DNA of 64,000 nt from Fimicolochytrium jonesii (taxonomy: Eukaryota): positions 124,001 through 188,000 of the forward strand of contig NW_026515670.1 of assembly GCF_025526975.1 (NCBI RefSeq), written 5' to 3'. Numbering within the stretch: the stretch's first letter is position 1; every line of letters starts with the position of its first letter. Both the position numbers and the translations under genes were made by a program. Of the stretch, positions 28,864-64,000 are shown one piece after another. Under the pieces are notes generated by a model. The model made no database searches, had not been told where the DNA came from, and saw nothing but the letters and a program-made list of their open reading frames with translations.

Positions 28864-30230
28864 CAGTCAGTGGACATAAAGCTGTGTGCATGCCAGATTA
28901 AGTCAGTGTCTGAGGCGCGTTGCGCGACATCAACTCATCATCCTTAATCTTGGGGCATTGCGAAACCTGACCTAAATGAATGGATCTAGATCTGAATTTC
29001 GCTAATACCTAGTTGTCCCCCCATTGGCTGCGATTACGGCTGCCATTCTTGATGGCATTGACCGTGTCAATGCATCAAGATGCGGCTGCATTGTGGGCCA
29101 TATAGTTTGCACAACGTTGTCCAACATTCCAGGGGTAGGGTTCGCTTTCGATACCTTCCGTTTGAGCATTGCCCACAGATTCGCAATCGGATTGAGATCT
29201 GGACTCTGCGCTGGCCAGGGAAGAAGCTCAATGCCGTGTTCATCAAAGAACTGTCAAGTTTCAGCCGATGTATGAATAGGGGCGTTGTCCTGCATGAAGA
29301 GAGGATTGGGAAGAAAAATCTCTAGATTCCGCCACATCGGCAACATGTTAGCAGTAAGATGTTGCACATAGGCAGTAGAGTTAATCCCTCCACGGTTTTG
29401 ACCCTCTCGCTGAACACGCTGCATCTCTTTCATTGGACCTACTGCATTTCCAATGAATGCTCCCCAGTACATGAATGTTTTTCGTCCACTCTTCCTGGTG
29501 CCCTGGATGCAATCGGGATGAAAACGTTCAGTTCGTAAGCGCCAGCACCGCATTTTAGGTACCCAGCCAATTTCAAAGGACGTCTCATCAGTCCAGAAAA
29601 CACGAGACCAGTCCGCTTCCGTCCAGTCTTGGTGCTGCAGTGCAAATGCAAGGCGTGCTGCTTTATGGTCCTCTGTCAATAGTGGCTTTGGGACCTTGAA
29701 ACGCGAGGTGAGATAGAGCAGGTCCCGTAGGTAGCGACGCACTGTTTTTGCAGACACCTGGAGTCCGGTGAGCTGCGTGAATTCAAAAGTGATCTGTTTT
29801 AGTGTTTTCTCCCGAGTGCTACTGTCAGCAACGACAATACTGCGGAAGGCAGCCAAATCATTGTCAGAAGGCTGGTACTTAGCTGGTCTTCCTGTTGGCT
29901 TCTTCGATTGATAGGCGGTTGGTGCAGTGGCACTCTCGTTCGCAAACCTCTTAATAGTGTTCCTCACAGTATTCCTGTGAACGTGCTCCTGCCTTGCAAT
30001 TTCAGATGTCGTCTTGCCTGCTATATGGAGGGCAACTATGGCTGCCCTTTTTTGTGGTGTGAGAGGTTTCCCCATAGCTGAGGTGGTGAAGATGTTGGCG
30101 TGCATTTCGCCATCACGGCTTCGTCGCTGGCTTCAATACTCAAGCTTGCGGCTCCAAAACGCGCGGTGCGCTTTGTGAAACGGTCATTGAAATCCATATG
30201 GGGTGCACACAGCTTTTTGTCCACTGACTG
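28864..30230 (-). mobile_element. Tc1/mariner DNA transposon, 1367 bp, complete ends
   Basis: 27-bp TIRs CAGTCAGTGGACA(T/A)AAAGCTGTGTGCA at 28864-28890 and 30204-30230 (26/27 match). TA target duplication at 28862-63 and 30231-32. Confidence 0.97.
29002..30075 (-). pseudogene. Tc1-type DD34E transposase, inactivated
   Basis: HTH region, GRP linker, FWTDE, MQDNAPIH. In-frame TGA at 29254-56. The third catalytic motif reads SPDLNPIAN instead of NPIEN. Confidence 0.92.
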
Positions 30231-42494: not shown

Positions 42495-42591
42495 TACAAG
42501 TTGCCATCATCGGCGACGCCTCAGGCAGAGGTACAATGATGTGGATGGCAGATAACCACCACGGAAAATGGAATGGGGTGAAAATTCTAGA

Positions 42592-42600
<9 letters not shown>
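42495..42600 (-). ncRNA. Candidate Fanzor omegaRNA scaffold / element right end
   Basis: Lies immediately downstream of the Fanzor stop. Stem TGCCATC (42502-08) / GATGGCA (42544-50) encloses a GCC-TCA-GGC mini-hairpin. Position matches known TnpB/Fanzor omegaRNA loci. Boundaries are uncertain. Confidence 0.45.
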
Positions 42601-45554
<2,954 letters not shown>

Positions 45555-45900
45555 GTTGGCTGTGCTGTGCCGAGACAGGTGTTGCAGGTGATTGCCGTGA
45601 TGGCTGTGTGTCAAAGAACTCGCGTCAGTGCGGAGAGCGGGGAGGATTTGCAGCCTGGCGCAGTCATGGCGCAGTTGTGGTTGACAAGCCGCACCTCCAA
45701 GACCACACTCTCCTCCTCTCACACGAAATGTCAAGCGCTTGCAGCTCACGCTTGCAGCTCACGCAACTCACGCAGAGCACACTCTGAGCATGGAAACGTC
45801 AAGCGCTCGCGGCGGATGACGGCCCCCTCACCCCCCTGGCCAGCACCCACCTCCTTCCAGCTCAAGCCCGGCAACTCACGCAGAGCTAGCACATTTGAGC

Positions 45901-46604
45901 ATGGAAACGTCAAGCGAGGTGAGTGGCCGCTGGGTGTTGACCGCCTGGGCTCGCGGTCCATGTTGAGCAGTACCGCCGCTTGCGGGAGGTCAACCTGCAT
46001 GGGCTGTGCTGTCTGAGCGTCTCCGCTGGGTGTTGACCGCCTGGGCTCGCGGTCCATGTTGAGCACAACCGCCGCTTGCGGGAGGTCGACCTGCATGGGC
46101 CGTGCTGCCTGGGCGTGTTTGCTATACGCTGATCTCGCGGGCTGAGCCGCTAACACCTTCCCTCCCCCCCTTCCCCTCTACCGCGCCACAGGCCACGCCC
46201 CCCGTCGCACCCACCGCGGTCAAGGCTCTTCTGATGGGCATGGGTGAGAGCCGCGCCACAGCTATCTTCGGCGACACGGTGGCCTTTTTGTATCCCCTGC
46301 TGGTAGACGCCGGCCTTGCCGCCCGGGACGCCAGCCTAGAAGACAAGGGCAAGGCGATTGGCCTTTTTTCAAAGAAGATCAAGCAAGACAACCCCACCCT
46401 TTGGGGTTGGTGGATCAATAGGTTAACGCGGTCCCGTCACCAGAAGAAGCGCGCCAAGCACAACATTGGGCTCCAGTCCGGCATCATCGCCGCGATCAGC
46501 GATGGCAGTCTTACCACGGCCGACTTCTTGGTGGACCCCCAGCCCTCCGCTAGCCGCCCGGCTGCTCACATCGTGGTGCCAACGCCCGCCTCGTGCGATG
46601 ACTG
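45901..46604 (+). pseudogene. Unknown gene divergent from Fanzor, interrupted by the LTR insertion
   Basis: ATG 45901 METSSE, then GTGAGT intron with GCTAAC branch point and CAG at 46191, then in-frame ATPPVAPTAVKALL...ASCDD up to the LTR start at 46605. Confidence 0.55.
45927..46107. repeat. Two near-identical ~85-bp direct repeats (96-bp period)
   Basis: CCGCTGGGTGTTGACCGCCTGGGCTCGCGGTCCATGTTGAGCA...GTGCTG at 45927 and 46023. Confidence 0.85.
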
Positions 46605-46823
46605 TGTAATGAGGTGCTGCAGGTGTCACCTTAGTGCGGGGAAGCGCGTAGGGCATGAGATCACGTGTAGCATAGATTATATTGGAGTTCTACGCTCTGG
46701 GGTGACTCCCGAAGGGGAGAAAAGCCTTCGGGCGGCGCCCCGGGAGGTAGAAACTCCAGAATTCTTTCAATACATCGAGCGGAGACAGAGCTAGCCTCTG
46801 GCAACGGACCTAGCATTACTACA
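46605..46823 (+). repeat. Probable 5' LTR of the Ty3/gypsy element
   Basis: Bounded by TGTA...TACA and followed directly by PBS-like TGGTAGCAC (46824). No second copy in the window, so the left boundary is inferred. Confidence 0.6.
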
Positions 46824-49800
46824 TGGTAGCACCACCCTTCAAGATCTCTCCGGCAACCTACGATGAGCAACTCTCAGGCAGGTGCTAATACCGCTGTCAG
46901 CTATGCGATGGTTAACAATGACCGCTTAGAGCTTGACCCATTTGAACACCCACATCGAAGGGCGCAACGGCTCGACGGCGACCAACGCCAAGGCAACGGC
47001 CCCGCAGAGCGTAACCGCCCCTTGCACAGGCGCAGGGGGTCACCCTCGTGGTCGCCACCTGGAAGGAGGCACTCCCGCTCACGCTCACCTCGTCAACGTC
47101 GAAGCCCAGACCCCCGACGCTGAAATCGGACGCCAGAGCGATGCAGGCGCAGACGACGAGGTCGCAGGAGCATCTCCCCACCCCGTCGAAGGAGCCGCTC
47201 AGTAAGCAGCTACCGCAGCCGCTCCCCGGCGAGGACCCGAAGCCGCTCCCCCATGCTGCGCAGGAGCCGTACCCCAGCCCGACAGGAGAACGGACAGACA
47301 ACAATCCTCCAAATCCTAGCCCAGCTGGCCAACACCAACGCCCAACTCCAGCAGCAATTCGAGCGCCTGGAGAGGGACCGCCCAGATGACAGCCCCTTTG
47401 CTGGAGTACGAGTGAGCCGTGAGGACCATTTGGCGGCTAGCAAAGAGCGTAAGCGCAAGGCGGCCGCCGAGAAGGAGTTCCGAACCACCTTGGCTAAGAT
47501 GCTGACCAAGTTCAGTGGTAAGGCTAAATGGTAAAGACATGGTCGCCAAACTGGACGAGTTCGGCGACGCCCACCTACGCTATCTGGAAGCCACCGAATT
47601 CAGAACGGAGGATGGGGACGTGAAACACTTTGTAGCCCACTTGTCGGGGGACGCCGCTGAGTGATGGAAGCTTGAGGCTTGCTCCGGAGAGCCTCCCGCC
47701 ACCCGGGAACGGTTCCTGAAGGCACTCAGGCGCAGGTTCTACCCCGTTAACCTCCGTAATTCGGTCGACGCGAAACTGGCCGCCCTGAAGTTCAAAGACA
47801 GCATGTCAGACTACGTTTTGGCCTTCAACGCACTGACCACACAGATTGCTATCCTCCCTGAAAAGGAACATCTCACACCGCGACAGGAACGTGAGTACTT
47901 CTTGAACGGGCTGACCTTCCACCAGGTCGGACGTCGCATCCGTGAACAGTGTTACCAGTTCATCCTACAACAGGGCAATGAGGACGAAGACATCCCCATC
48001 AAGACCCTTCAGGAAGCTGCCCAGAGGGCCTCTCGCATCAGGCGTTATGCCGACGGGACCGCCCGCATTTCGGAAGACGGCAAACGGATCCAACCCGCTA
48101 CGGCCACTCCGGCCCAGGCTCGCGACAAGCGCGATACGCCCCGCACCTTCAGGTGCCCGCCGAGGCCTTCGATGATGACAACGACGGGTTCCATTCGGCC
48201 GCGGAGGAGCCCCCAAGCCCCGCATACTCCGTCGACAGTCAGGATTTTCTCCCCAGGGCCTGACCGCCTGCAGCGCCTCAGCGTCCAGACAACCCAAGGG
48301 ACCTACCAGACCCTGACTGCATGACACCATTCTGGAATACCGCCCCGGGCCTGTCATCGACAAGCACACGTTCATGGTCCATGGACGTGTCGGCGGCGTC
48401 TTCTGCCGCATCCTCATAGACACTGGTTGCAATACCATGCTCATCAGCGACTCATTCGCCCAACGCCATGATCTTAACACGTACAGCTGTCCCACGCCCC
48501 TCGAGGTGCGCTGGGGTGACAAAGCCGGATCATACGGCCCCATGTGGATGATTTGTGCCGACCTCTCCGTCTTCACGGAAGAACGAATACCTCATAAGAC
48601 CCCTCGGGTCCCGTTTGTCGTGGCCCCGATCCGCGCGGATGTTATCCTAGGGCTGCCCTACATCCTGGACCTTGACCTCATACACTTATGGCGCAACAAT
48701 GGGTTCCCGGCGCTTCAATTCGAGGCTAACGCAACCGTACTAACTTTCCGCACTAAACCTACCGCCCGCCAATGGCAACAACCCAGCGCTTGCGCGGCCC
48801 GGTTACTCAAACGTCATACGGGCCCTCGCCCCCGCTGTTTCTACCCAAAGCGCGCGGCCTTAAATGAGGAGGGCTTCCTCACTGCCAAACAATTCAAGCG
48901 AGCAATCAAGAGGGATAAGACCACCGAGGTCTATCCCGCATGGGTCTCAAGCACGGACACGGAGGTGGACCTGGCCACAGACGATGCCCTCGCGGACGTC
49001 GCCGAAGCCGAGGCTAACTTTGTTCACACGGTCGAGGCGAAGAAACGTGCGATCCTGGCGGACCGAAAGGCAACGGCCACCCCTCCGGATACCACCCCGG
49101 ACAATCCACTCGCGTCGGTCGCCGCCGACCACCCTCTTCGCCCGACGTTGGAACAGTTTACAGATACCCTCTTCACCGAACAGACCGGCCTCCCGCCGGA
49201 CCGTGGCGACAACAACTTCAGCATCAATCTGAAGCCTGGCTCCAAGCCTGTCATGCTCCCACTCTGCCACTTGGCCCCCAATGAACTCGACGAGCTACGG
49301 CAGCAACTCGAGCGCCTATCATCCCGTGGGATCTCCCACTCTAAGAGCGCCTGGGGGGCACCCGTGCTGTTTGCCCCGAAGAAGCACGGTGGCCTCCGCT
49401 GCTGCATCGACTACCGGGCCCACAACAAGATGACCCATAAGGACGCCACGCCCCTCCCGAACCTCAACGAGCTCGTCGGGATGAAGGTCTTCACTGCTAT
49501 CGACATCCACGATGCCTACCACTGCATCCTCATTCGGGAGGAAGACCGTGAGAAGACTGCCTTCTGGAAGCGCTTTGGCCACTTCCAGTACAACGTATTA
49601 CCCTTCGGGCTGACGAATGCGCCCGCGACATTCCAACGCCTCACGAACAAACTCCTGGGCGACAAGTACAATTCATTCCTCATCTCTTACCTCGATGACA
49701 TCCTTATTTTCAGGCCTGACATGGACTCACACATTGGGCATGTCACCGAAGTGCTCAAGACCCTCTCGGCTCACCACCTCCACGTGAAACCGTCCAAATG

Positions 49801-51891
49801 TCAGTGGGCGGTGGACCAGGTCGAGTTCTGCGGGCACATGGTCGGTAAGGACGGCCTTTCCATCGCCCTGTCCAAGGTCGAGGCTGTCCACGCTCGACCC
49901 AAACCCACCAGCGCCCTCGAGCTCCTCTCCTTCATGGGGCTAGTCAACTATGTCAAGGAATACATTCCGCATTATGCTGACACAGCCCTCCCACTGACCA
50001 ACCTTCAATCCGGCACCCGCCCGTGGCAGTGGGGCGCCGAGGAACAAGCAGCATTTGACACCATCAAGGCGCGCGTCGCCGACGCCCCTTGCCTGGCGTT
50101 CTTCGACCCTGATAAGTTCCCCTACGTCTTCTCTGACATCGGGCTTTGCCGTAGGGGGTTGGATCGGTCAGGGCACGGACGGCGACTTTCCCAGGCCAAA
50201 TCCACTGCCCACCACGAAAAAGGGCCTCAATAACCTTCCGTGCCGGATGGCTCCGGCCGAGACCCGATACCCCGTGCACGAACAGGAGCTCCTCGCATTG
50301 GTCAAAGTGATCCGCGCTAACCGCCACTACCTCATCGGTCGCCAATTCCGTGCATTTGTCGACCACGAATCCCTCATATACCTCCAGAATCAGCCTCATC
50401 TCTCCCGGCGCCAGGCCGGATGGGTGGAGTTCCTTCAGGACTACGACTTCACTATCGAATACCTCCCCGGCAAGTTCAATCACATCGCCGACATACTCAG
50501 CCGCACCCCGCTGTACGCCCCGAAGTGCGCCAGCTGTCAGATGAAGGTCGAAGTGTTCTCCATTGTCACCCCGACACCTCTACCGGACATCACTGGCCGC
50601 CTCCCTACCGACGCCGAGTGGCTCACTGCGCTCGACGATGACAAGTTCTGCAAGGACACCCACGCCCACCTGCAGACCACCGAACAAACCCCGACGACCC
50701 CTCTACCCTCTTGGGTTTTGCCCGCCGCCTCACACGCGACGACCATGGCTTCCTTTTGTACCATGGCTGCCGCTACGTCCCCGAGGGCTTCGGGGCCCCC
50801 TCCTCAGGTTCTATCACGACTCCCTGGCCAACGGCGGCCACTCGGGTGTCCAGCGCACCGTCGCCAAACTCCTCGCGCTCTACTACTGGCCCCGCCTCGA
50901 GCGCGAGGTCCACCAGTACGTCTGGACTTGTCCCGACTGCCAACACAACAAGCAGGCTTCCAACTTCGGGCTCCTACGCAGCATTCCGGTCCCCGACGAG
51001 CGCTGACGTTGCGTCGGCTTGGACATCTACTTCCCCACAACGAACTCTAAGGGGGGGGAAGCGGGAGACGAGTCCGTCATGGACAAGGGAGCCGTCCTCA
51101 TCCTGGCGGACTACTTATCCAGCCGCATAATCCTCCTCGAGACCCATGCCAAGGCGACGGCAAAGTTGTTCTTCGACCAGGCCTTCCGCATCACGGGCAT
51201 GCCCCACACGATCATCAGCGATCGGGACACCAAAGGGACCGGCGCCTTTTGGAAGCACCTCCTGAAGTGCGCCGGCGTAGAGCAGGAACTCTTGTCGGCA
51301 CGCCAACCAGACCGACGGCAAGACGGAGAACGTCATCAAGACAATCAAGAAGATGATGGTCCCCTACCTGAACTACACCGGCTCGAACTGGCGCGAGATG
51401 CTTCCCCTCCTCGAGTACAACTACAACAGGACGCCCCAGACCTCCACGGGCATGTCCCCGTACAAGATCAACATCGGGTACATCCCGAAGGTACCAGACC
51501 AATGGGGTACCAGCGACCCAACAGAGCAACTGAAACAGGCCGATCAAAAGTGCATTGAGGAGCGCATGCAGCAACTGACCGAGGTGAGCCGCATCGTCCA
51601 GCACAGACTCCGAGAGGCCCAGGACAGGCAGGCAAGATACTACGACAGGAACAAGAATACGGACGCGTTCGTAGTAGGTGACCAGGTCCTGCTGAACCGC
51701 GAAGGCATCCATATCAAGAGTATCTCGGCCCGAAACAAGAAGCTGTCCGCGCTATGGATCGGGCCCTTCACCGTCATTGGGAAAGGGCCCCACCCGGACA
51801 CCTACGAGCTGGAGCTCTCCCACGAGTTCAGTGGACTACACCCGGTGTTCCATGTCAACATCCTACGCAGGTACAACCCTCCGGAGAACGG
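46605..51891 (+). mobile_element. Degenerate Ty3/gypsy LTR retrotransposon, 3'-truncated
   Basis: Gag fragments 46863-48324. Protease ILIDTGC, RT LPFGLTNAPATFQ and YLDD, RNase H YPVHEQELLAL, integrase GHSGVQRT...CPDCQ, GPF/HPVFHV region. Multiple frameshifts and stops. PPT and 3' LTR are missing. Confidence 0.95.
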
Positions 51892-51941
51892 CTGTCATAG
51901 GCCACCCATAGGCTGTACAGCCTATGGGTGGCCTATGACAG
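51892..51941. repeat. Perfect 50-bp palindrome at the gypsy/virus junction
   Basis: CTGTCATAGGCCACCCATAGGCTGT|ACAGCCTATGGGTGGCCTATGACAG, with no loop and no mismatch. Confidence 0.97.
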
Positions 51942-52866
51942 TAGCCTATCGGTCTATAGGTCATACTTCTCAACAGCCTACGGGGTCTATAGGTCATACT
52001 TCTCAACAGCCTACGGGTCAATGGCCCATAGTCCTCAACAGCCTATTCTCAGCATATGAGTCTATGGGCCACAGATCTCGTCAGCCTATCCTACAGATCT
52101 CAGCAGCCTATCGGCACGACTCCAGTCACGTGACCTCGCTGGGCCTTTGTTTATTAAACGACTTCGAGCCAATTCTTGCCAGGACTACACGCAACCCTCT
52201 CCGTTGTCTCCGGATTGGTCCTGTTACTTTGCGCGAATAACAACGTTATCGAGTGGTAGCCATTTTTAGCCATTTCATAGCCACTTCGTGGCCGTTTCGT
52301 AGCCATTTCCCTCCTCTCCATACTTTCCCTCTTTATCGAGTGAACACGCGTCTTTCACTGATTTTTATCGAGCCGTTTCGTCGAGCGTTTCAAATGGTAG
52401 CCAAGTAGCCATTTTCTGCCAGAATTCTCTCCGTATATATAAAACTGTGCTCCTCAAGGTGGTGGTCATATTCACCACCACCACCTTGTTGATCAAAATT
52501 TATACTATAACACCTTTCCAAAATAAATGGCTACTTGGCTACTTTCTATTCTCTTCATATTATTCTCTTCATTCTTCTTATCAAATTCAACCTTTCACTC
52601 GATCTAAAGTTCCTTGTCGAGTCAGAAAAAATGGCTACCTGAATGACTACGGATTGCTCTTAATGGCTACCTACCCCCGCTTCTACTTTTCCCCTCCCTA
52701 CTCATACTTATTCAATTTGATTCCTAGATATCCTCGTGACACTTTCTCTACACTTCTTTGACCAAAGTCGCCTACGCTTTTCATGATCTTTAACTTCTAA
52801 GTTCCGCATCCTTTCTGCGGGTCGCACACATTTAAGTATTTGAATACTATACATCAGACATTAGCC

Positions 52867-53199
52867 ATGCCAAACGTTCTTGAAATCAATTCGCATATCA
52901 AGTGTATCGAGGGAGTTTTTGTCATTCGTTTTGTCGTAGCAGACCTCGATAGTCTGGAACGAATATGTCGGTCTATGTTAAACAAACCCGGTTACATGGC
53001 ATATATCAAAGTAAATGACGAGAATCGGGGAATTTTTAAGCAGATCTATACCATTTTTAATAAGAAGAATAATCGTCTCCGTAAAGACTTCATTTTCAAG
53101 AGCGGGTATCTAGGTATTACTCAAGACTCCGAGCAATTACGGATGCTATGTGGAACAGACACAGACCATCGAGCGTGCGTTCTTGATATTGATACTTAG
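52867..53199 (+). CDS. Viral hypothetical protein (~110 aa)
   Basis: ORF MPNVLEINSH... converges on the fibre gene, and their stop codons overlap. Confidence 0.5.
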   Translation: MPNVLEINSHIKCIEGVFVIRFVVADLDSLERICRSMLNKPGYMAYIKVNDENRGIFKQIYTIFNKKNNRLRKDFIFKSGYLGITQDSEQLRMLCGTDTDHRACVLDIDT

Positions 53200-56100
53200 T
53201 AGCACTGTGTCCAAAAGTTGAGATATGAATTGGATAACACTATAGAAGTTGGTATGACAATCCTTGCGCTTAACTGCGTATTCGTCGAAGAGAACAGCAA
53301 CGGCACTTGGAAACTGAACGGGTAACGAGTCTGATAATTGTTGATATCGCAATAATACGACACTCCTCTACTAGCCACTACAGTAGAAGATTGGTCTAAT
53401 ATTTGAACAGTTATCGTGACTCGACTGTTCATTGCATTCATATATCCCATAAAGGAAACATGCGCGACCACTCCCGACATACCTGCTTTCCAATTTATGG
53501 GACCGAAGCCCCCCGTGTAGCCATTTGCGTTTGTCAACAACGCATCAACAACACCGTCTTCTATGCAAACTGCAGATTGAATGATTTGTGAAGCATAGAT
53601 GTTCGTACTACAAGTCAAATCATTCTTTACCAAGGCTGTTGTATTGCATGTCAAGGAATTCACAGTTGCTGAACCACTTGATGAAACGGTTCCCGTAGTT
53701 ATCGCACCCGAAACATCTATATTGTTTGCAGAAGCACTGACAAGGGTCGCTTTCGGAACAGCCTGATTGAACTGAATCTGGCGGATAGCGACCCCTCCTG
53801 TTGCTGTCTGATTCGCGTACTGCCATGCGATACCCCATACTACATAAGGCGTGGTGTTTGCAAAACTAAACGTATTTCCATCAGTGGTCCAAGTAGAACC
53901 AGGTATATTCGAAAACGTTGCGATTGTTACCATAGCCGACTCGGTTGTTCCGGCAATCACGGAGAACGTAGTAGGCATCGCCACGGCGTCCATCAGGTAG
54001 GCGGTGAGTTTAAGAGAAGCCATAGCAATGGCCGACGGGAGTCTCAATAACGACCAATGCAAACTCTGTGTTGTTCCATCTAAGCCTAAATTGGCTGTTG
54101 AAGTGCTTGCGGTCGCCCATCGTAATCTGGATGCAATACTCGCATTCATGTAAGCGTCGAATGGATGACCAGTGTATCCATCTACACCGTTTCCATTTGC
54201 GTAGGTATATTCTGAAGACGCGCTCACAGTGTACCCGTTCCATGAAGAACCTGTTGCGGGCGTTGTGGGGTAAGGGAACAAAGTAGTTTTCGATGTTAAG
54301 GCAGGACTGTTCAAATCACCGGTCACATTGAGATTTGACCCGACATATAAAGATTTTGCTACAGATGCGCCTCCACTCACTACAAGGGCGCCTGATGTAG
54401 AGGTTGCATCCGCAGTGTTCAAGACAGAGACGTTACCTCCAACATATACGTTCTTTGCAACAGAAGCGCCTCCAGAGACTTGCAACGCACCGGTTCCAAC
54501 GCCTGTGGAATCCGTCGTTGTCCAAACTTGAATTCCTGCTGCACTTATTGATGCCGCTAATACATTTCCTGTCGCGGGGGAAGACGAACCCGTCCCTGTG
54601 GTCGAGTTATTCATGTAAAAATCTAAAGCATTCCCAGAATCCATATTCGAAACAGCGTTGTGTCGTGATTTGATGAAATGTCTGTATCCTGACCCTCCAG
54701 CGCTGAACTCGAATGAGATTCCCCCACTACCCGAAGCGCCCAAATTGGTAGCACCGCCTCCAATTGTCAGCCATTTCGCTATTCCAGCCCCTCCTCTTAC
54801 CTGAAGCGAACCTGATGTTGACGAAGTTGAATCTGCAGTTGATTGTATCTGTACACTTGGGAGATTACTGTTTATCACAAAGTTAGCGCCAGACCCCGAA
54901 TAGAGGAAAAAGTTTCCAGCGTTTGGGGCACTTGTACCAGTTCCAGCATAACCGAATGCTCCCACCACCGTTCCTGTATTGTTAAGGAAACCGATAGTAG
55001 AAAACCCAGATGCCGAAAGACTCTGAAGTTTCAAAACGTCAACGGAAGTTGAGTTTACTTGCAGTGTATGGCTTCCAGTAGCCGATGAACCAGCAAATAG
55101 AGATTTTGCGATTCCGACGCCACCAGACACTTGCAAAGCACCTGTTGTTGTAGAAGATGAATCTACTGGAGATTCGGCGATAACTGCTCCATCCCCGCGT
55201 ACACTCAAACCATATGATTGATTGGCTATCTGCAGTTTGATATAATTGTTTGCAGAGCCAGTACCTGTCAAGACGAAACTCATCTGTCCACAGTTCATGG
55301 ATGTGTTGCTCTGTCCAAGGGTTATCCAGTTGGAGAATCCAGTAGCCATATTGGGTAGAAGAAACGTGGCAGCGTTTGTATAGCCCGTACCCGCCATAGT
55401 TGAGGTGAGAACCCCCCCGATGGAAACGCTTTTCCCCACACCTAACCCTCCTACCACTTGCAATGCCCCAGTTGTTGTAGAAGAGGAGTCGGTTACAGAT
55501 GAAATAATAACCTCTGAAGTGGGCTTCACTTGTAAAGGCAAGGTTTGGGTCAAACTGTTGTACAGGTAGAACCCCCCTGGCCCGGTATTTACACCGGATG
55601 AACCGTTAATGCCAAAATAAAAACCAGAGTTCGTTACACTTGTATTTGTGAATCCGAATTGAACATAATTGCTGCCATTTCCTGTCATATTCAACGCTGT
55701 CTGTGATGAGCCTGTGGTGACTGATAGTGTTGCAGTACCACCGACATACAGATTTTTCGCAATTCCAACGCCTCCGGCAACTTGCAAAGCACCTGTTGTT
55801 GTAGAAGTTGAATCAATTGTCGAATTCGAAATGAGAGCATTATTGGTATAATTTACAGATAAAGCCAAATTACCTGCGGAGGTGTTCCAAAGACCCAAAT
55901 TATTGGTTCCTGATGCACTCGTTTGTCCTATATGCCACCAATACCAGCCACCCCCATTGGAGTTTATTATACTCAAACCTGTTCCATTTCCAGCCACAGA
56001 TTCTTTAACTGTTATTCCGTTGCCAACCCATAACGCTTTAGATATACCGACTCCACCTGCAACTTGGAGAGAACCAGCATTTATAGCGTTGGAGTCAAGA

Positions 56101-59100
56101 GTAGAAGTAACTACAGTCGATGCAGCGTTATTTATATTCAGAGTCTGTCCTGTTGTGGTATTCAGGTTCGCTGTTGTTCCTCCTAGGAATACGGTGCCGC
56201 CAACCACCACACTTTTCCCCACACCAACTCCTCCAACAACTTGGAGCGCACCTGATGTAATCGAGGTAGAATCAGTCGTTCCGGCAATTTGAACATTCGA
56301 TGCAGCATTCCCCAGAGATGTGATTCCTGATTGACTAGCATTGATGCTGAAAACATTTCCAGTTTTTGTCAATCCGGTCCCAGCAGTTGAAACTAGACCA
56401 TCAACGTAGGCTTTTGTTGTCGCGTGCATAGCCGATGTTGGTGTAGACACAGTGGCGGTTCCGCTGACATTCAATACACCAGATACATTTGCGTTACCCG
56501 TGACATTAAGTCCGCTTAGGCTAGAACTACCAATTACGTTCAAACTAGCATTAACCGTCACATCCTGCAAATCGCTGTTTCCAGAGACAATCAGGTCAGA
56601 CGCTCGAACTTGAGCAAATTGTGCAATACCATCAACGGAAAGCCCAAACGAGTTCAAATCTGTCGAAGTTAAGTGTAGACTATTTAATGAAACATCTGGT
56701 TTTACGGATAGCGCCGTACCTGTTTTTGTAAGATTATTACCAGCATTTGTTGTTTGAGCATCCACATAAGACTTTAATGCAACATTCTGGTCTAGATTCG
56801 TGTATGGCAAGATACCTGTCACATCTGTTGTGAGCGTAATGGTGTTCTTTAACGCGATGGAGCCGAGCCCTAATGCCGTTCTAGATGCTGATGGAGTTGT
56901 TGAGACAAAATTACTTCCATCTGCAACAAGGAAATTATTGAGAGTTGGGGTGCTCGAAGATATAGCAGTCAATTTGGGATTGAGAGGTTGAGCATTTCCG
57001 GATGTTGTAGAAATCAATCCGTCCACATATGATTTTGTTACAGCATGCGAAGGCGTGGTTGGAGTAGGTACGGTTATTGACCCTGTAAATGTGCTAGAAC
57101 CAGAAACGGTGAGACCCGTTAAAGTACCCACACTTGTGATTTGTGTTTGTACAGGATTCACACTTAGCGTCTGAGCGGTTTTCGAGAGGCCGGTTCCTGC
57201 AATAACAATGTTCGGATCAACAGACCCAAAAGGAAGAATTCCGGTGACATCTGTACTTGCGAGATTGATAACGGATTTAGCCGCCAAACTGCCAAGTGTA
57301 GGCTTGTTTATCAGTAAAGCCGAAGTGTAATCTATATTACTCAGTGCTGCAAGAGAACCAAGAGTTGGCTTTCCAGTAATGTACGTCGAAGCATAGTCAA
57401 TACTGCTAAGTGCTGCAAGCGAGCCAAGCGTAGGTTTCCCTGTTATGTATGTACTCGTATAATCAATGCTATTTAGCGCAGCGAGACTGCCAAGGACAGG
57501 TTTGTTCACCAACGCCGAACTTGTGTAGTCTAACGTATCGAGTAAACTCAGATTCTTTAAGGACAAGTTCGCACGAACGTCTGCTGGGGAATACTGAATG
57601 AAGTTCCCACCCGATGCGATAAGCATAAAAGTATTTGTCGGGGCAATGTTTCCGAAGTTTGTTAGACGAGCATTGAGCGGCTGCAACGTCGCCGCAAGGT
57701 TATCTACATATCCTTTGTTTGCAGCATTTCCAGCGGCTATTGGAGTCGGACAAAGTAAAACAGATGAAACGGTGACTGAATTAAAGGTTTGTCCGCTGTT
57801 CAACGAAACGGCACCGGTGGTAGGATTTCGAACTAAACCAGTGGTGAATGAAAGTCCACTTACTTGGGAAAAGGGCAGAGTTCCAGTCTTATCAAACTTG
57901 GTATCGATGCTACTTTGCAGCAGAGATGTGTTCTGGCTTATAACATTCATATATGCTGGTTGATTCACATCCGTGTCCCACTCTTTTAATATGTCGAGAT
58001 TCACGGACTGTTGACCATACTCTTTCGCTACACCTCTCCACCAACATGGAGGGGGTTTATCAAACATCAATCGGGTCACATCACAATCCGTGTCGTTGAT
58101 TTTTGGAAAAGTTGCTATGATAACCTCACTACCGTCTACCAAAACCGGGTTCCCGTCTGCCCCGATAATATTCGTTCCGTCCGAATTCGTCTTGTTTTGC
58201 CTGCGTCTGCCTGACTCTTGAAGCAGACCCCCGAGAACCGCCACTCCACCTGCCGCTCCAGCAAGTGCTCCGATAGCACCAAATGCCGAACTGGCAGAAG
58301 CCACCGCTCCAGCCGCGGGTGCAGCACCGATAAGAGAACTGGCTGCCCCAAGAGCCGCCCCAAGGGGTCCAACAAGTGATACTGTACTTGGGGCAGATGA
58401 AGCAGTCAATGGGTCCGATTCACCAGATGGCTCCGAATCCTCATTTTTCTCTTCCGGGTCATCGTCTTCCTTTTTCTTTTTGTATGGCTGGATAGATGAA
58501 ATAGTATAACCTGTTAATGGGCTTCCAACACAGATAATGCCTTCACCACCACTGATTTCAGTACCTTGAGCGCTGATTACATAGCCGCTCTTTGAACTTC
58601 CAGAAACAGTCACGCCGCTACCAGAAGACACGTTGACATCCGGAATGTTTGCAGAAATCGTATTTCCTGTGATACTGATGTTCTGACCCGCCTGATAATT
58701 ACCTTTCAGCGTGGAGCCTTGCTTGACAATTGTGGAGCCATCTGCTGTAATTTTAGAAGAGATGGTAGCGGTGGATTGATTCCAAGATAAATCTTCATCC
58801 GTTTTGAGATCTAGATTGACCGTCGCCGAACCGATCTGTGAGTCTGTATGAAAACCGTTACCGAAATGGTAATTCGTTCCGGTCAATTTCCCGTTGTTCA
58901 CAGTAATCGTGTCTCCATCAACCAGAGCGACTTTGTCTATATCCAGTACATTTTCATTCATCAGAAGTCCGGAATCCGCCTTTACTTCGATATTACCTTC
59001 AATGCCTCCCGTCTCATTATCGACAAGAATTTGCGCATTCTTACTCGTGATATTCAAATTGACTTTGTTCAGTCCCACCTTTTCCAACCCGGGTCCAACA

Positions 59101-60458
59101 TCGAGTGCAAGTTGTACATCGTTATTTGTTCCTTCCCTCAGTTTCAATCCATTTTGGCTCTGGAAATTCAACCCCGAGGCAATCTTTCCATCAACGACCC
59201 TGACTGATGAGCCGTTTACGATAGCGGATGGATTCACTGAAAGATTTTGTGAAGAGTCAATTGCTAAACTTGCATCTGTTCTAACATCGATAGTACGCCG
59301 ACCATTGGACACTCCGGATATGTCTATACCTGACCCTGCTTGGTACAATTGCTCTACGTACCCGGATGTCACCACTTCATTGTTCGAAGGGTCGAAGTTG
59401 CTGGTAACGTATACATGCGGAACATGTAGTTCATTGAGTGTTTCATTATACATAAAACTACTGTCTCCATTTAACCCCGATAATGCAGAATAGAATGGTA
59501 CTTGCCCCATACCCTTCGAGCGGATAGCCAATTTTCCTCCTGTTTGTTGGAAATCATCAGTCGTCTTCAAACGCACAACAGTTGTATCAACATCCGTATC
59601 TGATCCCAGAAAGTCCGCAAGGGAATCAAAACCGGTCTCTAGAAGGTCATCGAGTGCAAGACTTCCTGCTTTATCATTCGAAATAGCCCCTCGTCCAACA
59701 ATCACTGTATCAACGTCGGTTTCCAAGTTCCCTTCATCATTTACTTTCAGACCTTTTCCATAATCAAGATGAATTACCTTGTCTGCATCTTTCGAGAGCG
59801 GTTCTGCTACCTCCAAAGATTAATCAACGATCGCCTGAATGTTCTCTGGAACAACAGACAACTGACCGTTTTCAACTGTCAATGTGGAGTCAATATCCAA
59901 AGAGATTCCTTGTACGTTACGCTTCAAAGGACTTATAACGGATTCTTTCACAACTGCTAACTTACCATTACTGACCTCGAATGAATCATCATCAAAGTCC
60001 AACTTTATTCCTTCATCATTTCTTGACAACGGCTCTTGAAGATTTTCCAGTTCAGGCGGGGGAAAGTTAACAGTCAACCCTTCTGCACCTACTGAAAGCG
60101 ATTGGTCGTGGAACAAATTGAGACCGTTTTCATTGACTCCGAGAGGCAGGTTTGTTGAAAGGGAAACAGTTCGGCTTCCGTCATCCCTTTGGAGGGGAAA
60201 TTCCATATTGTCAGGGATTACTTCAACAGATGCAATTCCGTTGGTTTTGTGAATAATCGCATCTTCGCTGTCAACAAGGTCGTTCAACAAAATTGGTCCA
60301 TTTTCGTTCGATACCTTTTGAAAGCCTGCTGAATGAAAATTATCAATTGATACGTTCTCTCCATTAGCACGAAGACTATTGGTCACTAAAGGAGAAACGA
60401 GATTGGTTCGTTCAAGCACTCTGATTCCACTTGATGTTCGGGAATTTAGACCGCTCAT
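53196..60458 (-). CDS. Giant fibre/spike-like protein (~2420 codons) split by one in-frame TAA at 59820-22
   Basis: The 212-aa and 2206-aa ORFs share one frame (GAT TAA TCT TTG). Shaft-like repeats PLxxxxxxIxLxxDxxLxVxxGxL, neck motifs A(A/V/T)xKxYVD, and eight DSxSxxxGALQVxGGxGIxKxLxVG repeats. Confidence 0.8.
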
Positions 60459-60479
60459 TTACTAATTGCTAAAGAAAAA

Positions 60480-60776
60480 TTATCCGATTGGAGTTTGCTG
60501 TAAATGTTCTAAGAATTGATCACCGCCTTTATGGAAATCTTCAACTCTCTTTATTCCCAGATCTGCAAACTGTTGCCCTTTTCGCGCAGTTTCCTTGATT
60601 TTATCGTGGAAGACATCATTCTCTTGAATCCCTTTGTTTACATGGCTTGCTATCGCATATCCCTTTCGAGTAACGGAAACCGCTTTGTCTAGAAAATTCC
60701 TCGCCTTTCCGATATTTTGTGGCAGTTCGTTGAAAAATGTGCGCGCTTTTCCTCTCGCTTTTTGAAAGAATCCCAT
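60480..60776 (-). CDS. Small basic viral protein with amphipathic N-terminus
   Basis: MGFFQKARGKARTFFNELPQNIGKARNFLDKA; lies 21 bp upstream of the fibre gene on the same strand. Confidence 0.65.
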   Translation of the reverse strand: MGFFQKARGKARTFFNELPQNIGKARNFLDKAVSVTRKGYAIASHVNKGIQENDVFHDKIKETARKGQQFADLGIKRVEDFHKGGDQFLEHLQQTPIG

Positions 60777-60824
60777 TGAATATTCTTTTTCTTAACATGT
60801 ACTAAAGAATATATATTCCATTCT

Positions 60825-62290
60825 ATGTTGGTTCTTGACGACAAGTTTGCTCGATTGCCAAACAATACTTTTCCCTCCCCTCCAGTGTTGAATATCCATT
60901 CAAATCAGTTCGGTTACATACAGGGAAAGCCTGAAGAGACCTTTGACCGTTTATTCAAAACTCCCTTCTACGTTCCAGGCAAAGGGAAAATATCGGATGC
61001 ATTCTCTATAAAAAAGACTGTATATCAACCACTCAAACTCCGTGAAGGAGAGTACCAGTCTCAGATTGGAAAACAGGCTGTGGAAGCGCTCCATGCTATC
61101 GATAAGGAACGTGCAAGACAAGCATACTTTGATGAATTGGATAAAGACAATCTTTTCCCTCGACAAGGTCGAACGGTTTCTTTAACCAAAACCACAGCGT
61201 CGAAAGGCGATACAATCTACCATCAACCGAGTTACATTCGCGCTCAACAGAATCAATTCATTGGAGATGCATCATCCAATGTGCAACGAACCGGTGATAA
61301 TCACCTTCCGGAAAAAGCAAACATGAGTGAAGCAAATACGATACTTGGTAACAACAAGGTGGTAACAAAAATGAACGACCGTGAAACAATGACGGACGAA
61401 ATTGGTAGAATCGGTTCTGCTGAAAAGATAAGCATGTCAAATAGCCGCACACAGACAGATATTCCTCTCCATCGGGTTCGAGATCTTAGAACAGTTGAAA
61501 CGCAGAGTACAACACCGGATCTAGACAGCGATACGTTAGATCTTATATTCTCGTCTGGAGGAAAATTTCAACATTTTATGGATGGAGTAACAAACTGCGA
61601 ATCAAACCTTGCAAACACAACTCCGATCTCAAGAAGAGCAACTTGGAAGAATGACAACAGCCACAATGTCTACGTTCAGAAGAATGTTAGAATCGGTAGG
61701 TTTTAAAAATGTTCCTTCGACAATGACTCCGGACGAGATGGAACGACTTCTCAGCCAAGTGCAAAGCGTCACACCTATCGCATTAAGTGAAGTAGGGAGC
61801 GATGCAAAGATTGATAGAAACTTTAAGAAAGGAAAAGATTACAGAAAGCAAAGATGTAGGGACACAATATTCTCTTGGAGATGTGCCATGGGTTGCTAGA
61901 CCACGACCACCACCCATAATTACGAATTTCTCACCAACAATAAGTTATCCATCTGCCAGTTCAGCAGTAACTCAAAGCGACATTTTCCCGAATAGGAGTC
62001 CGAAATCTACCCTTTCAACTGGATCGGTAGGATCCCCTATGGATCTCTCCACACCAATTGAACAGTTTGTTACCGCCGAACCGATTACTCAAGTTCTTTC
62101 CCCAAATCTGGATTCTGCAACACCAACACAGAGAGATATCTTCACCGATTCCCCAGCAGTGAGGGCTCCAGAAAATACACCCATTGCGCCAATAAGGAAA
62201 AAGAACAGTACACGAACATCTTTACCTCCCGAGAGATTATCTTATGAACACGGCTGGGAACAATCTTCAAAACGGGCACGAAAAGTATAA
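60825..62290 (+). pseudogene. Viral hypothetical low-complexity gene, probably broken by two frameshifts
   Basis: Three overlapping + frames (60825-61706, 61609-61899, 61802-62290) with similar S/T/P-rich composition. Confidence 0.5.
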
Positions 62291-62378
62291 GATAAAAAGA
62301 TCATAATTGTATAGAAGGTTATAATTGTAATATTTGAGAATCATAGAGGATTCTGAAATGTACAAAAGCGCATAAGTT

Positions 62379-62516
62379 TTAAACGATCTTCTTCCCGGCT
62401 CGTCGAGCAAGGATAAATGGAAGCAATTGTGGAGGGATTACACCTTTTTTCGGTTTTCCAGATTTAGTTCTAGCAGGAATGCGAACTGGTTTCAAAACCT
62501 TTTGTTTTCTCGGCAT
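62379..62516 (-). CDS. 45-aa highly basic putative virion core protein
   Basis: MPRKQKVLKPVRIPARTKSGKPKKGVIPPQLLPFILARRAGKKIV has 14 K/R and no acidic residue. It starts 28 bp after the capsid stop and is below the ORF-track cutoff. Confidence 0.65.
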   Translation of the reverse strand: MPRKQKVLKPVRIPARTKSGKPKKGVIPPQLLPFILARRAGKKIV

Positions 62517-62544
62517 TGGTTTCTACTATATGATTAGAAGATTT

Positions 62545-63768
62545 TTATACAACATCGACGGTTGCTCCAATCAAGATGGTGCGTTGAGCATAGACGGTTG
62601 TTTGCAATGAAACACTGGTACTCGGGGCCGGGAGATTGTGATTTGTGATTAGATGTACGTTTCCGGAGCCTCCGAGTAGGTTCAAAGCGCTACTGGAATC
62701 TTCATCTGCGCTTTGCCACGAATAACGCATTACGAACTGTTTGTTGTAAAAGTTATCGAGGTCCAAGTCTTCAGAGGCGTATGATGTATTATCATTCATG
62801 GAGAGGTTGCCTATCATAACCGTATCTTCTACCTGGAAATCTTCGGTTAAAGGTAATCTATATTGTCCTATCTGATACCTCCATGACTTCAAGTTGGCTG
62901 TATCATAAATCAAACTTTTGTCCCCTGATGTAGTGGCGTATTTATTATCGTCTCTAAACCTATGTGTTAATCCGACAATCCGGCCGTTTGTGAGTGGGAG
63001 AATCCAGTTGTTTTGAGACGAACCACTACAGACATTTGAGAGTTGTTGAACACCTACTACATCCATTTCGAGATACTTCCCTGCCCGAATTCCGGACCAC
63101 AATGCGGACATATAAGCGGCACTCGGGACCACAAGTTGTGCTACATAACGAAGATTTGAAACTTCAAAGTATACTCCGGAACCAACATTGCTAAACGCTT
63201 GCTGCGGTGTGTTTAAAGTGAATGTCAATTCCACCAATTGATTCGGCAAAATCGCTAGTGGAATCGGGTTTCCGTTCAAATTTCTCATGGACCCTGCCAA
63301 CAAATGGTGTTTGAATGTGAAAGTTCCGTTGGGATTTTTGAACGCATCCGGGTTACCTGCTCCTTCGTTATATTTCAAATATTTTCGTTTCTCAGCCTCC
63401 ACAAACTGGAGAGTGTCCGCAACAAAACTTGGTACATCTTCAATTTCGTCAACAACTTTTCCGCCAAATCGCACGTTCATCGTTCGGAAGCAAGCCATTG
63501 CACCGATTTGAGAAATCTGCGCATCCGTGACGGGGCTTCCATCCGCATTTTTCACAGAGATGGTTCCCGATAGATACGAGCGTTGAGGTCTCAAAAAGGA
63601 ACTATTGGAATCAACTACGATTTTTATAGCATTTCCAGGTGATTTTGAACTAAACGTCTCCTTGATTGGGCGATAAATCGCAATATTTTCGCTGAGAGCG
63701 TCTGAATGCATCGAAAATTGTCTGCTACTATAGATCCAGTTTGAAGGAACAACGGGATTTGTTGACAT
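62545..63768 (-). CDS. Major capsid protein, double-jelly-roll type of Polinton-like viruses/virophages
   Basis: Intact 407-aa beta-rich ORF. N-terminal pattern FSSKSPGNAIKIVV...FLRPQRSYLSGTISV...GAMACFRTMNVRFGGKVVDEI, then IPLAIL...VELTFTL and FEVSNLRYVAQLV, typical of PLV capsids by recognition. Confidence 0.8.
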   Translation of the reverse strand: MSTNPVVPSNWIYSSRQFSMHSDALSENIAIYRPIKETFSSKSPGNAIKIVVDSNSSFLRPQRSYLSGTISVKNADGSPVTDAQISQIGAMACFRTMNVRFGGKVVDEIEDVPSFVADTLQFVEAEKRKYLKYNEGAGNPDAFKNPNGTFTFKHHLLAGSMRNLNGNPIPLAILPNQLVELTFTLNTPQQAFSNVGSGVYFEVSNLRYVAQLVVPSAAYMSALWSGIRAGKYLEMDVVGVQQLSNVCSGSSQNNWILPLTNGRIVGLTHRFRDDNKYATTSGDKSLIYDTANLKSWRYQIGQYRLPLTEDFQVEDTVMIGNLSMNDNTSYASEDLDLDNFYNKQFVMRYSWQSADEDSSSALNLLGGSGNVHLITNHNLPAPSTSVSLQTTVYAQRTILIGATVDVV

Positions 63769-63823
63769 TATTTTTAGTTATAATGGTTTAACATATCTCT
63801 AAGAAAAAAATAATCAACGTCCA

Positions 63824-64000
63824 TCAACGTCCGCCAAAGATTCCCATATACGGATCATCATCTGCTTCGGGAGGATCGAATTCTACAAACGTGTTTTCCT
63901 CCACAGAGTCGTCTTTGTACGCAGCAGGTTGAAGCGCTTTGGGCATTCGATTGATTTTTGCTATACGCTCTTGTCGCTTTTGTTCAGCAATTTTCTTTTT
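63824..64000 (-). pseudogene. 3' end of an upstream viral ORF, cut by the window edge and apparently frameshifted
   Basis: KKIAEQKRQERIAK continues as INRMPKALQP...DPYMGIFGGR* only after a frame change in an A6 run. Confidence 0.35.

What the first reader, a model, noticed from the sequence alone, without database searches (positions are those of the whole stretch)
51892..64000. Endogenous Polinton-like DNA virus in a chytrid-like fungal genome
Seen: a compositional break to AT-richer DNA without introns, a co-oriented structural cluster (407-aa beta-rich protein, 45-aa basic protein, 98-aa amphipathic protein, ~2400-aa fibre), and a structured terminus. Known: PLVs, Polintons and virophages use ~400-600 aa double-jelly-roll capsids, and dsDNA viruses of fungi are poorly sampled. 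Inference: an integrated, partly decayed virion-forming element, possibly of an undescribed lineage. Packaging ATPase, penton, polymerase/helicase and integrase are not in view and should lie to the right.
Basis: partly seen in the sequence, partly recalled or inferred. Interest (0 to 1): 0.9.

Follow-up and report, generated by a model that had tools for sequence, protein, structure and literature searches.

The report
Hairpin-ended small DNA virus in chytrid
One end of a small DNA virus, with a capsid gene, a very long fibre-like gene and a perfect 50-base palindrome at its tip, sits against a cut-off jumping gene in what is likely a soil chytrid fungus; it belongs to a capsid lineage repeated in several chytrid genomes, and this copy is likely broken.

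Summary
Real. GC falls from 54% to 44% at about 51.9 kb, where a decayed Ty3/gypsy element stops and a perfect 50-bp palindrome (51892-51941) begins, followed by two arrays of short repeats. The 407-aa protein models as a double-jelly-roll capsid (Foldseek: iridovirus and PBCV-1 capsids, E about 1e-11). It lies in a fully supported clade whose 11 named members all come from chytrid genomes, some as near-identical copies on megabase contigs. That points to an integrating Polinton-like virus (PLV) family. It is not the published 'S. punctatus group': that capsid is about 554 aa, while S. punctatus carries three other genes of this 417-aa type. Corrections: the fibre (2420 codons) has a stop at codon 213, and a missed 490-codon gene on the + strand carries two frameshifts, so the copy is likely defective, though assembly errors are possible. 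ATPase, penton, replicase, integrase, right end and junction reads were out of reach. PLVs in chytrids and palindromic PLV ends are each in print; I did not find this lineage described. Verdict: new variant of a known kind.

The parts
46900..51891 (+). Decayed Ty3/gypsy retrotransposon (gag, protease, RT, RNase H, integrase Zn finger, Tf2-like SH3) that ends about 17 bp after the SH3 domain; no LTR pair found. Insertion site. Start coordinate approximate.
   Evidence: Pfam hits spread over several frames; self-blastn of 44001-53200 shows no LTR-sized repeat
51892..51941 (.). Perfect 50-bp palindrome; likely the outermost end of the virus
   Evidence: coincides with the GC change point
51909..52110 (.). 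Subterminal ACAGCCTA-type repeats, including two identical 33-bp units
   Evidence: 5 of the window's 7 exact matches lie in 51909-52045, with 1.0 expected in the whole window; repeat family D4
52256..52670 (.). Head-to-head GTAGCCATT repeats (3 forward, 3 reverse) around an 18-bp inverted repeat and a central hairpin; origin-like by inference
   Evidence: 6 of 7 matches in the window lie here, with 0.56 expected; fold z -7.2; I2 and I5
52867..53199 (+). 110-aa ORF, no family assigned
   Evidence: no Pfam, PHROG or Atlas hit
53196..60458 (-). Fibre/spike-like gene of 2420 codons, interrupted by an in-frame stop at 59820-59822. N-terminal adenovirus-fibre-like repeats, a Gly/Ala hydrophobic stretch, 4 LGSLAAL and 8 GALQVxGG repeats, and a predicted C-terminal beta-sandwich head.
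   Evidence: PF06536 E 1.4e-15; 37% identity over 667 columns to a Powellomyces protein across the stop; repeats; low-confidence model with weak TNF-like-lectin and tailspike matches
60480..60776 (-). 98-aa conserved small protein, likely structural
   Evidence: homologue beside a 22%-identical capsid in metagenome locus L001: 42% over 33 aa, E 2.8e-7, 0 of 5000 shuffles scoring as high
60825..62290 (+).
   Evidence: intact 490-aa homologue P0013 matches in three successive frames; the Geranomyces homologue's locus tag is next to the capsid's
62379..62516 (-). 45-aa basic ORF (14 K/R, no D/E), possible DNA-condensing protein; no homologue found
   Evidence: no significant match in L001 or L002
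62545..63768 (-). Double-jelly-roll major capsid protein, 407 aa, intact
   Evidence: AlphaFold2 pLDDT 65.5, pTM 0.70; Foldseek 8hif E 4e-12 and PBCV-1 6ncl TM 0.63; BFVD; ESM Atlas
63824..64000 (-). 3' end of a Lys/Glu-rich ORF that runs off the window; a protein of like composition precedes the capsid in Geranomyces and in L002
   Evidence: direct similarity to the Geranomyces protein is not significant (E 0.13)

Best explanation
51892-64000 is one end of a small double-jelly-roll DNA virus of the Polinton-like kind, likely integrated into a decayed Ty3/gypsy element of a chytrid chromosome and likely no longer able to make normal particles. Shown: the capsid fold, a fibre-like gene, dense intron-free genes, a palindromic end exactly where the retrotransposon is cut off, and multi-copy relatives in chytrid chromosomes. 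Inferred: the full element is about 15-25 kb, with penton, packaging ATPase, replication and integrase genes to the right. An element-encoded integrase, most likely RVE-type, inserted the linear genome and should have left a 5-6 bp target duplication. After excision or infection the terminal palindrome would fold back to prime DNA synthesis, while the head-to-head repeats 0.4-0.8 kb inside would bind an initiator or primase-helicase, so a protein-primed polymerase would not be needed. The fibre's C-terminal head would bind the fungal surface or a helper giant virus. Odds: endogenous PLV-type virus about 0.85; this copy truly broken about 0.7; hairpin-primed, non-pPolB replication about 0.5.
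For: Fold. Family: 8 of 12 close hits are named and all 8 are chytrid gene models. All 11 named rows of the 17-row clade are chytrids (SH 100; 100/100 in a 31-row IQ-TREE subset). Copies 96-99% identical occur on different contigs within S. punctatus, G. semiglobifer and P. arcticum, several over 1 Mb. Gene neighbours are conserved: capsid and fibre are fused in one Powellomyces gene model, and the 98-aa gene lies beside a distant capsid. Many relatives lie on 11-25 kb contigs. Junction: change point, palindrome and gypsy truncation coincide. Precedent: 52-nt terminal palindromes associated with RVE integrase and non-pPolB replication genes in Halocafeteria elements.
Against: No ATPase, penton, polymerase/helicase, integrase, second end or target duplication is in the window, and no long related locus could be fetched (empty; one search gave two loci under 1.8 kb). 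The best structural matches are giant-virus capsids, and two family members weakly match the NCLDV Capsid_N family. Stops in endogenous viruses are often assembly artefacts (PMC10120064). Both frameshifts fall in one 1.5-kb gene while the 6.6-kb remainder of the fibre frame is open. The host's identity was not determined directly.
Confidence: 0.8

Rival explanations
1. The element is an intact, potentially active provirus, and the stop and two frameshifts are consensus errors from collapsing several near-identical copies.
For: Bellas et al. 2023 removed such stops by read correction. The capsid is intact and 87% identical to a Logan protein, the palindrome is perfect, and relatives are multi-copy.
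Against: Host ORFs of 500-600 codons and 2207 fibre codons are open, so the general error rate is low. Several chytrid copies have truncated or fused gene models, consistent with decay.
Confidence: 0.25
2. The region is the end of a giant-virus (Mycodnaviridae/Nucleocytoviricota) insertion, or of an NCLDV-like small virus (Mriya-, Zora- or Zephyr-like), rather than an Aquintoviricetes-type PLV.
For: Top Foldseek hits are iridovirus, chlorovirus and other giant-virus capsids. Atlas neighbours include clusters with Capsid_N/Capsid_NCLDV on 10-16% of members. Giant viruses are documented in chytrids (PMC13533422).
Against: No Pfam match for the window's capsid, and 1 of 34 family members matches Capsid_N, weakly. 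The top Atlas cluster is commonest in Preplasmiviricota. Relatives lie on 11-25 kb contigs and occur as dispersed near-identical copies. Identity to solved capsids is 8-13%, so rank order says little.
Confidence: 0.15
3. The junction is an assembly chimera: a free viral genome or another locus was joined to the gypsy element at a palindrome, where assemblers and long reads can fold back.
For: Palindromes and repeats on both sides are error-prone, and no read support was obtained.
Against: A fold-back artefact would duplicate long flanks, but only 25 bp are mirrored and the sequences on either side are unrelated. Family members are embedded in megabase contigs of three other chytrids.
Confidence: 0.08

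Closest known systems
'S. punctatus group' PLVs (Bellas & Sommaruga 2021, PMC7805220)
   Same: PLV integrated in a chytrid genome; double-jelly-roll capsid; long fibre-like ORFs
   Different: Their capsid is about 554 aa and matches SPPG_00925, and the S. punctatus element has a 154-bp TIR and pPolB. This capsid is 407 aa, its S. punctatus relatives are SPPG_02195, SPPG_07203 and SPPG_08453 (29% identity for SPPG_02195), and none of the stored proteins, the 137 profile hits included, carries any of four motifs of that group's capsids.
Chytrid PLV ATPases in 'two distinct places' among Aquintoviruses (bioRxiv 10.64898/2026.06.19.733378)
   Same: Reports further PLVs in numerous chytrid genomes; one of its two lineages may be this one
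   Different: In the sections read it describes no chytrid capsid clade, genome map or terminus. Membership is untestable without the ATPase; supplements were not seen.
Palindrome-ended virophages and PLV subtype 4 of Halocafeteria seosinensis (bioRxiv 10.64898/2026.07.28.741278)
   Same: Palindrome of about 50 nt at the very end of an integrated element; hairpin priming proposed
   Different: Stramenopile host, mostly virophages, both ends and target duplications known. Here the host is likely fungal, there is an additional head-to-head repeat array, and one end only is seen.
Mycodnaviridae (PMC13533422)
   Same: dsDNA virus with a double-jelly-roll capsid in zoosporic fungi
   Different: Genomes of hundreds of kb, with capsids found by the NCVOG0022 profile. 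This capsid has no Pfam NCLDV match.

Membership tests
Polinton-like viruses | Double-jelly-roll major capsid protein | tested here: met
Polinton-like viruses | Single-jelly-roll penton | tested here: inconclusive
   Not in the window. The first 60 aa of the fused Geranomyces model P0004 resemble penton C-termini printed, by eye only; no Pfam support.
Polinton-like viruses | A32/FtsK-type packaging ATPase | not testable with these tools
   Outside the window; no genome held; no long related locus found
Polinton-like viruses | 15-40 kb genome bounded by terminal inverted repeats with target duplication | tested here: inconclusive
   One structured end and at least 12.1 kb seen; relatives on 11-25 kb contigs; other end not available
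Polinton-like viruses | Integrase (RVE or tyrosine recombinase) and replication gene | not testable with these tools
   No such Pfam hit among the element ORFs scanned
S. punctatus group (PC_0050) | Capsid of the SPPG_00925 type, about 550 aa | tested here: not met
   407 aa; different S. punctatus homologues; 0 motif matches. Indirect: no direct alignment with that capsid was run, and a motif scan of IMG/VR fetched none.
Polintons/Mavericks sensu stricto | pPolB, RVE integrase and maturation protease | not testable with these tools
   Outside the window
Virophages (Lavidaviridae) | Virophage-type capsid of about 500-600 aa | tested here: not met
   407 aa, no Pfam match; Sputnik and mavirus rank below chlorovirus and iridovirus capsids
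Mycodnaviridae / Nucleocytoviricota | Capsid recognised by NCLDV profiles | tested here: inconclusive
   Window capsid has no Pfam hit; 1 of 34 relatives matches Capsid_N at E 0.0011 and P0033 at E 0.019; NCVOG0022 itself was not run
Mycodnaviridae / Nucleocytoviricota | Genome over 100 kb with PolB and transcription genes | not testable with these tools
   Only 12 kb in view

The most novel reading that the evidence does not exclude
This is a member of an undescribed, still-mobile family of fungal DNA viruses spread across soil chytrids. It has its own ~410-aa capsid lineage, a 2400-aa fibre and hairpin-primed replication without a protein-primed polymerase, it may integrate preferentially into LTR-retrotransposon integrase genes, and it may parasitise Mycodnaviridae as a fungal virophage. 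Intact copies in cultured strains would make it an inducible small dsDNA virus of fungi.
Probability: 0.3. Interest if true: 0.8.

Novelty: new variant of a known kind. Interest (0 to 1): 0.55.

Why it matters
A 2026 preprint states that no dsDNA (Baltimore class I) virus has been isolated from fungi. This capsid clade occurs in seven named chytrid genera, in 96-99% identical copies within three sequenced species. That gives concrete loci, such as SPPG_02195 and SPPG_08453 in S. punctatus, at which to look for excision and particles. It also extends palindromic PLV termini from one protist to fungi, which makes the hairpin-priming model testable: the model predicts which replication and integrase genes lie at the other end. 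The categories themselves are known, and this copy is probably broken.

Tried and rejected
No genome is held for the window. Sequencing runs for 50500-56000: none was listed. Seven protein scans of IMG/VR confirmed no relative, nor did two of GTDB contigs or the first metagenome scan; the second gave two loci of 1.8 and 1.6 kb (81). These pattern scans are insensitive, so this is not absence. A motif scan for an S. punctatus-group capsid in IMG/VR found nothing. A profile search with alignment A2 added one new name only, a second Powellomyces hit. PDB by sequence: 0 hits. Pfam and PHROGs miss the capsid. Rfam: 0 matches in 51000-64000 (128). Motif words of this capsid family and two SPPG tags were not found in the Bellas 2021 supplement (cells are cut at 400 characters). 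The Mycodnaviridae supplements gave no hit, but 6 of 10 files could not be read. VIA-align searches never ran because the machine was busy. The single-sequence model of the fibre tip is poor (mean pLDDT 39.8), so its matches are leads only. Rejected: palindrome as the start of the gypsy 3' LTR (no upstream copy); separate 212-aa and 2104-aa genes (a homologue reads through); RIP-like CpG/CpA depletion as the cause of low GC (dinucleotide odds are like the host's). No complex prediction was sent.

Full report
Observation. GC falls from 0.54 to 0.44, with the most likely change point at 51933 (51884-52150). Left of it lie eukaryotic genes (mitochondrial-type S7, Brr6-like, WD40, annexin with short GT-AG introns) and a Ty3/gypsy element whose gag, protease, RT, RNase H, integrase zinc finger and Tf2-like SH3 domains are spread over several frames. 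The SH3 match ends at about 51874, and 17 bp later a perfect 50-bp palindrome begins (51892-51941). It is the only palindrome in the window with arms over 10 bp and has no copy upstream, so it is not an LTR. From recalled knowledge of such elements, a linker, often a chromodomain, and a 3' LTR should follow the SH3 domain. Their absence suggests the virus arrived second, or that a deletion joined the two.

Terminus. Inside the palindrome are ACAGCCTA repeats (5 of 7 window matches in 51909-52045; 1.0 expected). Then come three forward and three reverse GTAGCCATT copies facing each other across an 18-bp inverted repeat and a central hairpin (6 of 7 matches; 0.56 expected). Both regions fold better than all 100 shuffles. 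Reading this as a hairpin end plus an origin is inference.

Capsid. An AlphaFold2 model from an 11-sequence alignment (pLDDT 65.5, pTM 0.70; residues 1-30 and 315-369 poor) matches double-jelly-roll capsids. These include Singapore grouper iridovirus (E 4e-12), PBCV-1 Vp54 (TM 0.63), then Sputnik, mavirus and PRD1, at 8-13% identity; BFVD agrees. The nearest ESM Atlas cluster is viral, commonest in Preplasmiviricota, though the recognition value was below the tool's threshold. Pfam, PHROGs and PDB sequence searches miss the protein.

Family. A word search gave 12 relatives of 4414 candidates at 40-87% identity; the 8 named ones are from Geranomyces, Gaertneriomyces, Phlyctochytrium arcticum and Powellomyces. 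A full HMM search gave 137 hits, mostly of about 410 aa. I could look up sources for only 30 proteins, which added Spizellomyces punctatus, Thoreauomyces, Borealophlyctis and Rhizophlyctis; most distant hits remain unnamed. In a FastTree of 124 rows (23 short fragments left out) the window's capsid sits in a 17-row clade with support 100. All 11 named rows are chytrids and five are unnamed Logan/ENA proteins. A 31-row subset that I chose gave 100/100 in IQ-TREE. The Rhizophlyctis capsid falls outside this clade in both trees. That these genera are Spizellomycetales and Rhizophlyctidales is recalled. Three genomes hold copies 96-99% identical on different contigs, several of 1-1.9 Mb, which argues for integration and recent spread. 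The window's host is therefore likely a chytrid, but I did not identify it directly.

Other genes. The fibre runs 60458 to 53196 (2420 codons) with a TAA at codon 213. A Powellomyces gene model that fuses capsid and fibre aligns across that stop at 37% over 667 columns. Its N-terminus matches the avian adenovirus fibre family (E 1.4e-15). The last ~110 residues model as a beta-sandwich with weak matches to TNF-like lectins and tailspikes, from a poor model. The + strand ORFs at 60825-62290 are one gene: an intact 490-aa JGI protein matches three successive frames. The 98-aa protein has a homologue next to a 22%-identical capsid in a metagenome contig, and a Lys/Glu-rich gene precedes the capsid there, in Geranomyces and probably here. 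The 45-aa and 110-aa ORFs have no homologue in what I searched. Against decay, Bellas et al. 2023 show that such stops can be assembly artefacts, and both frameshifts lie in a single gene.

Mechanism. Most likely this is an integrating virus of 15-25 kb whose remaining core genes lie to the right. By analogy with Halocafeteria elements, where terminal palindromes go with RVE integrases and non-pPolB replication genes, integration would leave a short target duplication, and the palindrome would fold back to prime replication. That preprint itself calls the model untested and offers accidental annealing as an alternative. Whether the virus replicates alone in the nucleus or needs a giant virus such as Mycodnaviridae is open.

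Comparison with print. Bellas and Sommaruga 2021 (PMC7805220; passages; supplement list, searches and one part) describe an S. punctatus PLV group with a ~554-aa capsid matching SPPG_00925, a 154-bp TIR and pPolB. The relatives here are other S. punctatus genes of 417 aa, so this is a different lineage, on indirect evidence. The 2026 PLV framework preprint (passages and sections 6-7; supplements not seen) notes chytrid ATPases in two places, so this lineage may already be in its data. The Halocafeteria preprint was read as passages and section 7. The Mycodnaviridae paper was read as passages and section 6 (6 of 10 supplements unreadable); it mentions a lone capsid gene in G. semiglobifer that I could not match to this family. 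PMC10120064 (passages) excluded fungi from its survey. bioRxiv 2025.04.19.649669 (passages) has no chytrid mention, and PMC12166617 (passages) was not relevant. Six literature searches found no description of this capsid clade, but the library lacks most subscription papers.

Earlier scan notes report a 44-bp terminal palindrome of a PLV-like element inside a retrotransposon in another chytrid genome. They led me to the Halocafeteria preprint; I did not check them, and they are not counted as evidence.

Verdict. It is a new variant of a known kind: a distinct chytrid capsid lineage with a palindromic end, seen here as one end of a probably defective copy. Interest 0.55.

Noticed in passing
window 42590-44970 (- strand): Broken frames ending in a TnpB/Cas12f-type zinc-ribbon piece (PF07282, E 0.0011, below cut-off), interrupted by a 9-bp tandem repeat near 43.5-43.8 kb; possibly a decayed Fanzor-like element (lead only).
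   Followed up: partly
window 29257-30132 (- strand): Tc1/mariner-type transposase fragment (HTH_Tnp_Tc3_2, E 5.9e-13).
   Followed up: no
window 45763-46118: Two 96-bp tandem copies (93% identical) and a 46-bp repeat just upstream of the gypsy element.
   Followed up: no
fibre residues ~660-750 (window ~58480-58210, - strand): A basic/acidic patch followed by a long Gly/Ala-rich hydrophobic stretch in mid-fibre; the charged patch is also in the Powellomyces homologue. Function unexplained.
   Followed up: no
P0156 (S. punctatus SPPG_07203): Gene model joins this capsid type to an HNH-AP2 endonuclease, suggesting a neighbouring homing endonuclease in that copy.
   Followed up: partly
P0049 (Rhizophlyctis rosea): A related ~429-aa capsid that falls outside the main chytrid clade in both trees: possibly a further chytrid lineage.
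   Followed up: partly
P0025 (Logan contig of 25,305 bp) and P0013 (JGI contig of 17,665 bp): Contigs of about whole-genome size carrying family genes; they could not be fetched.
   Followed up: no
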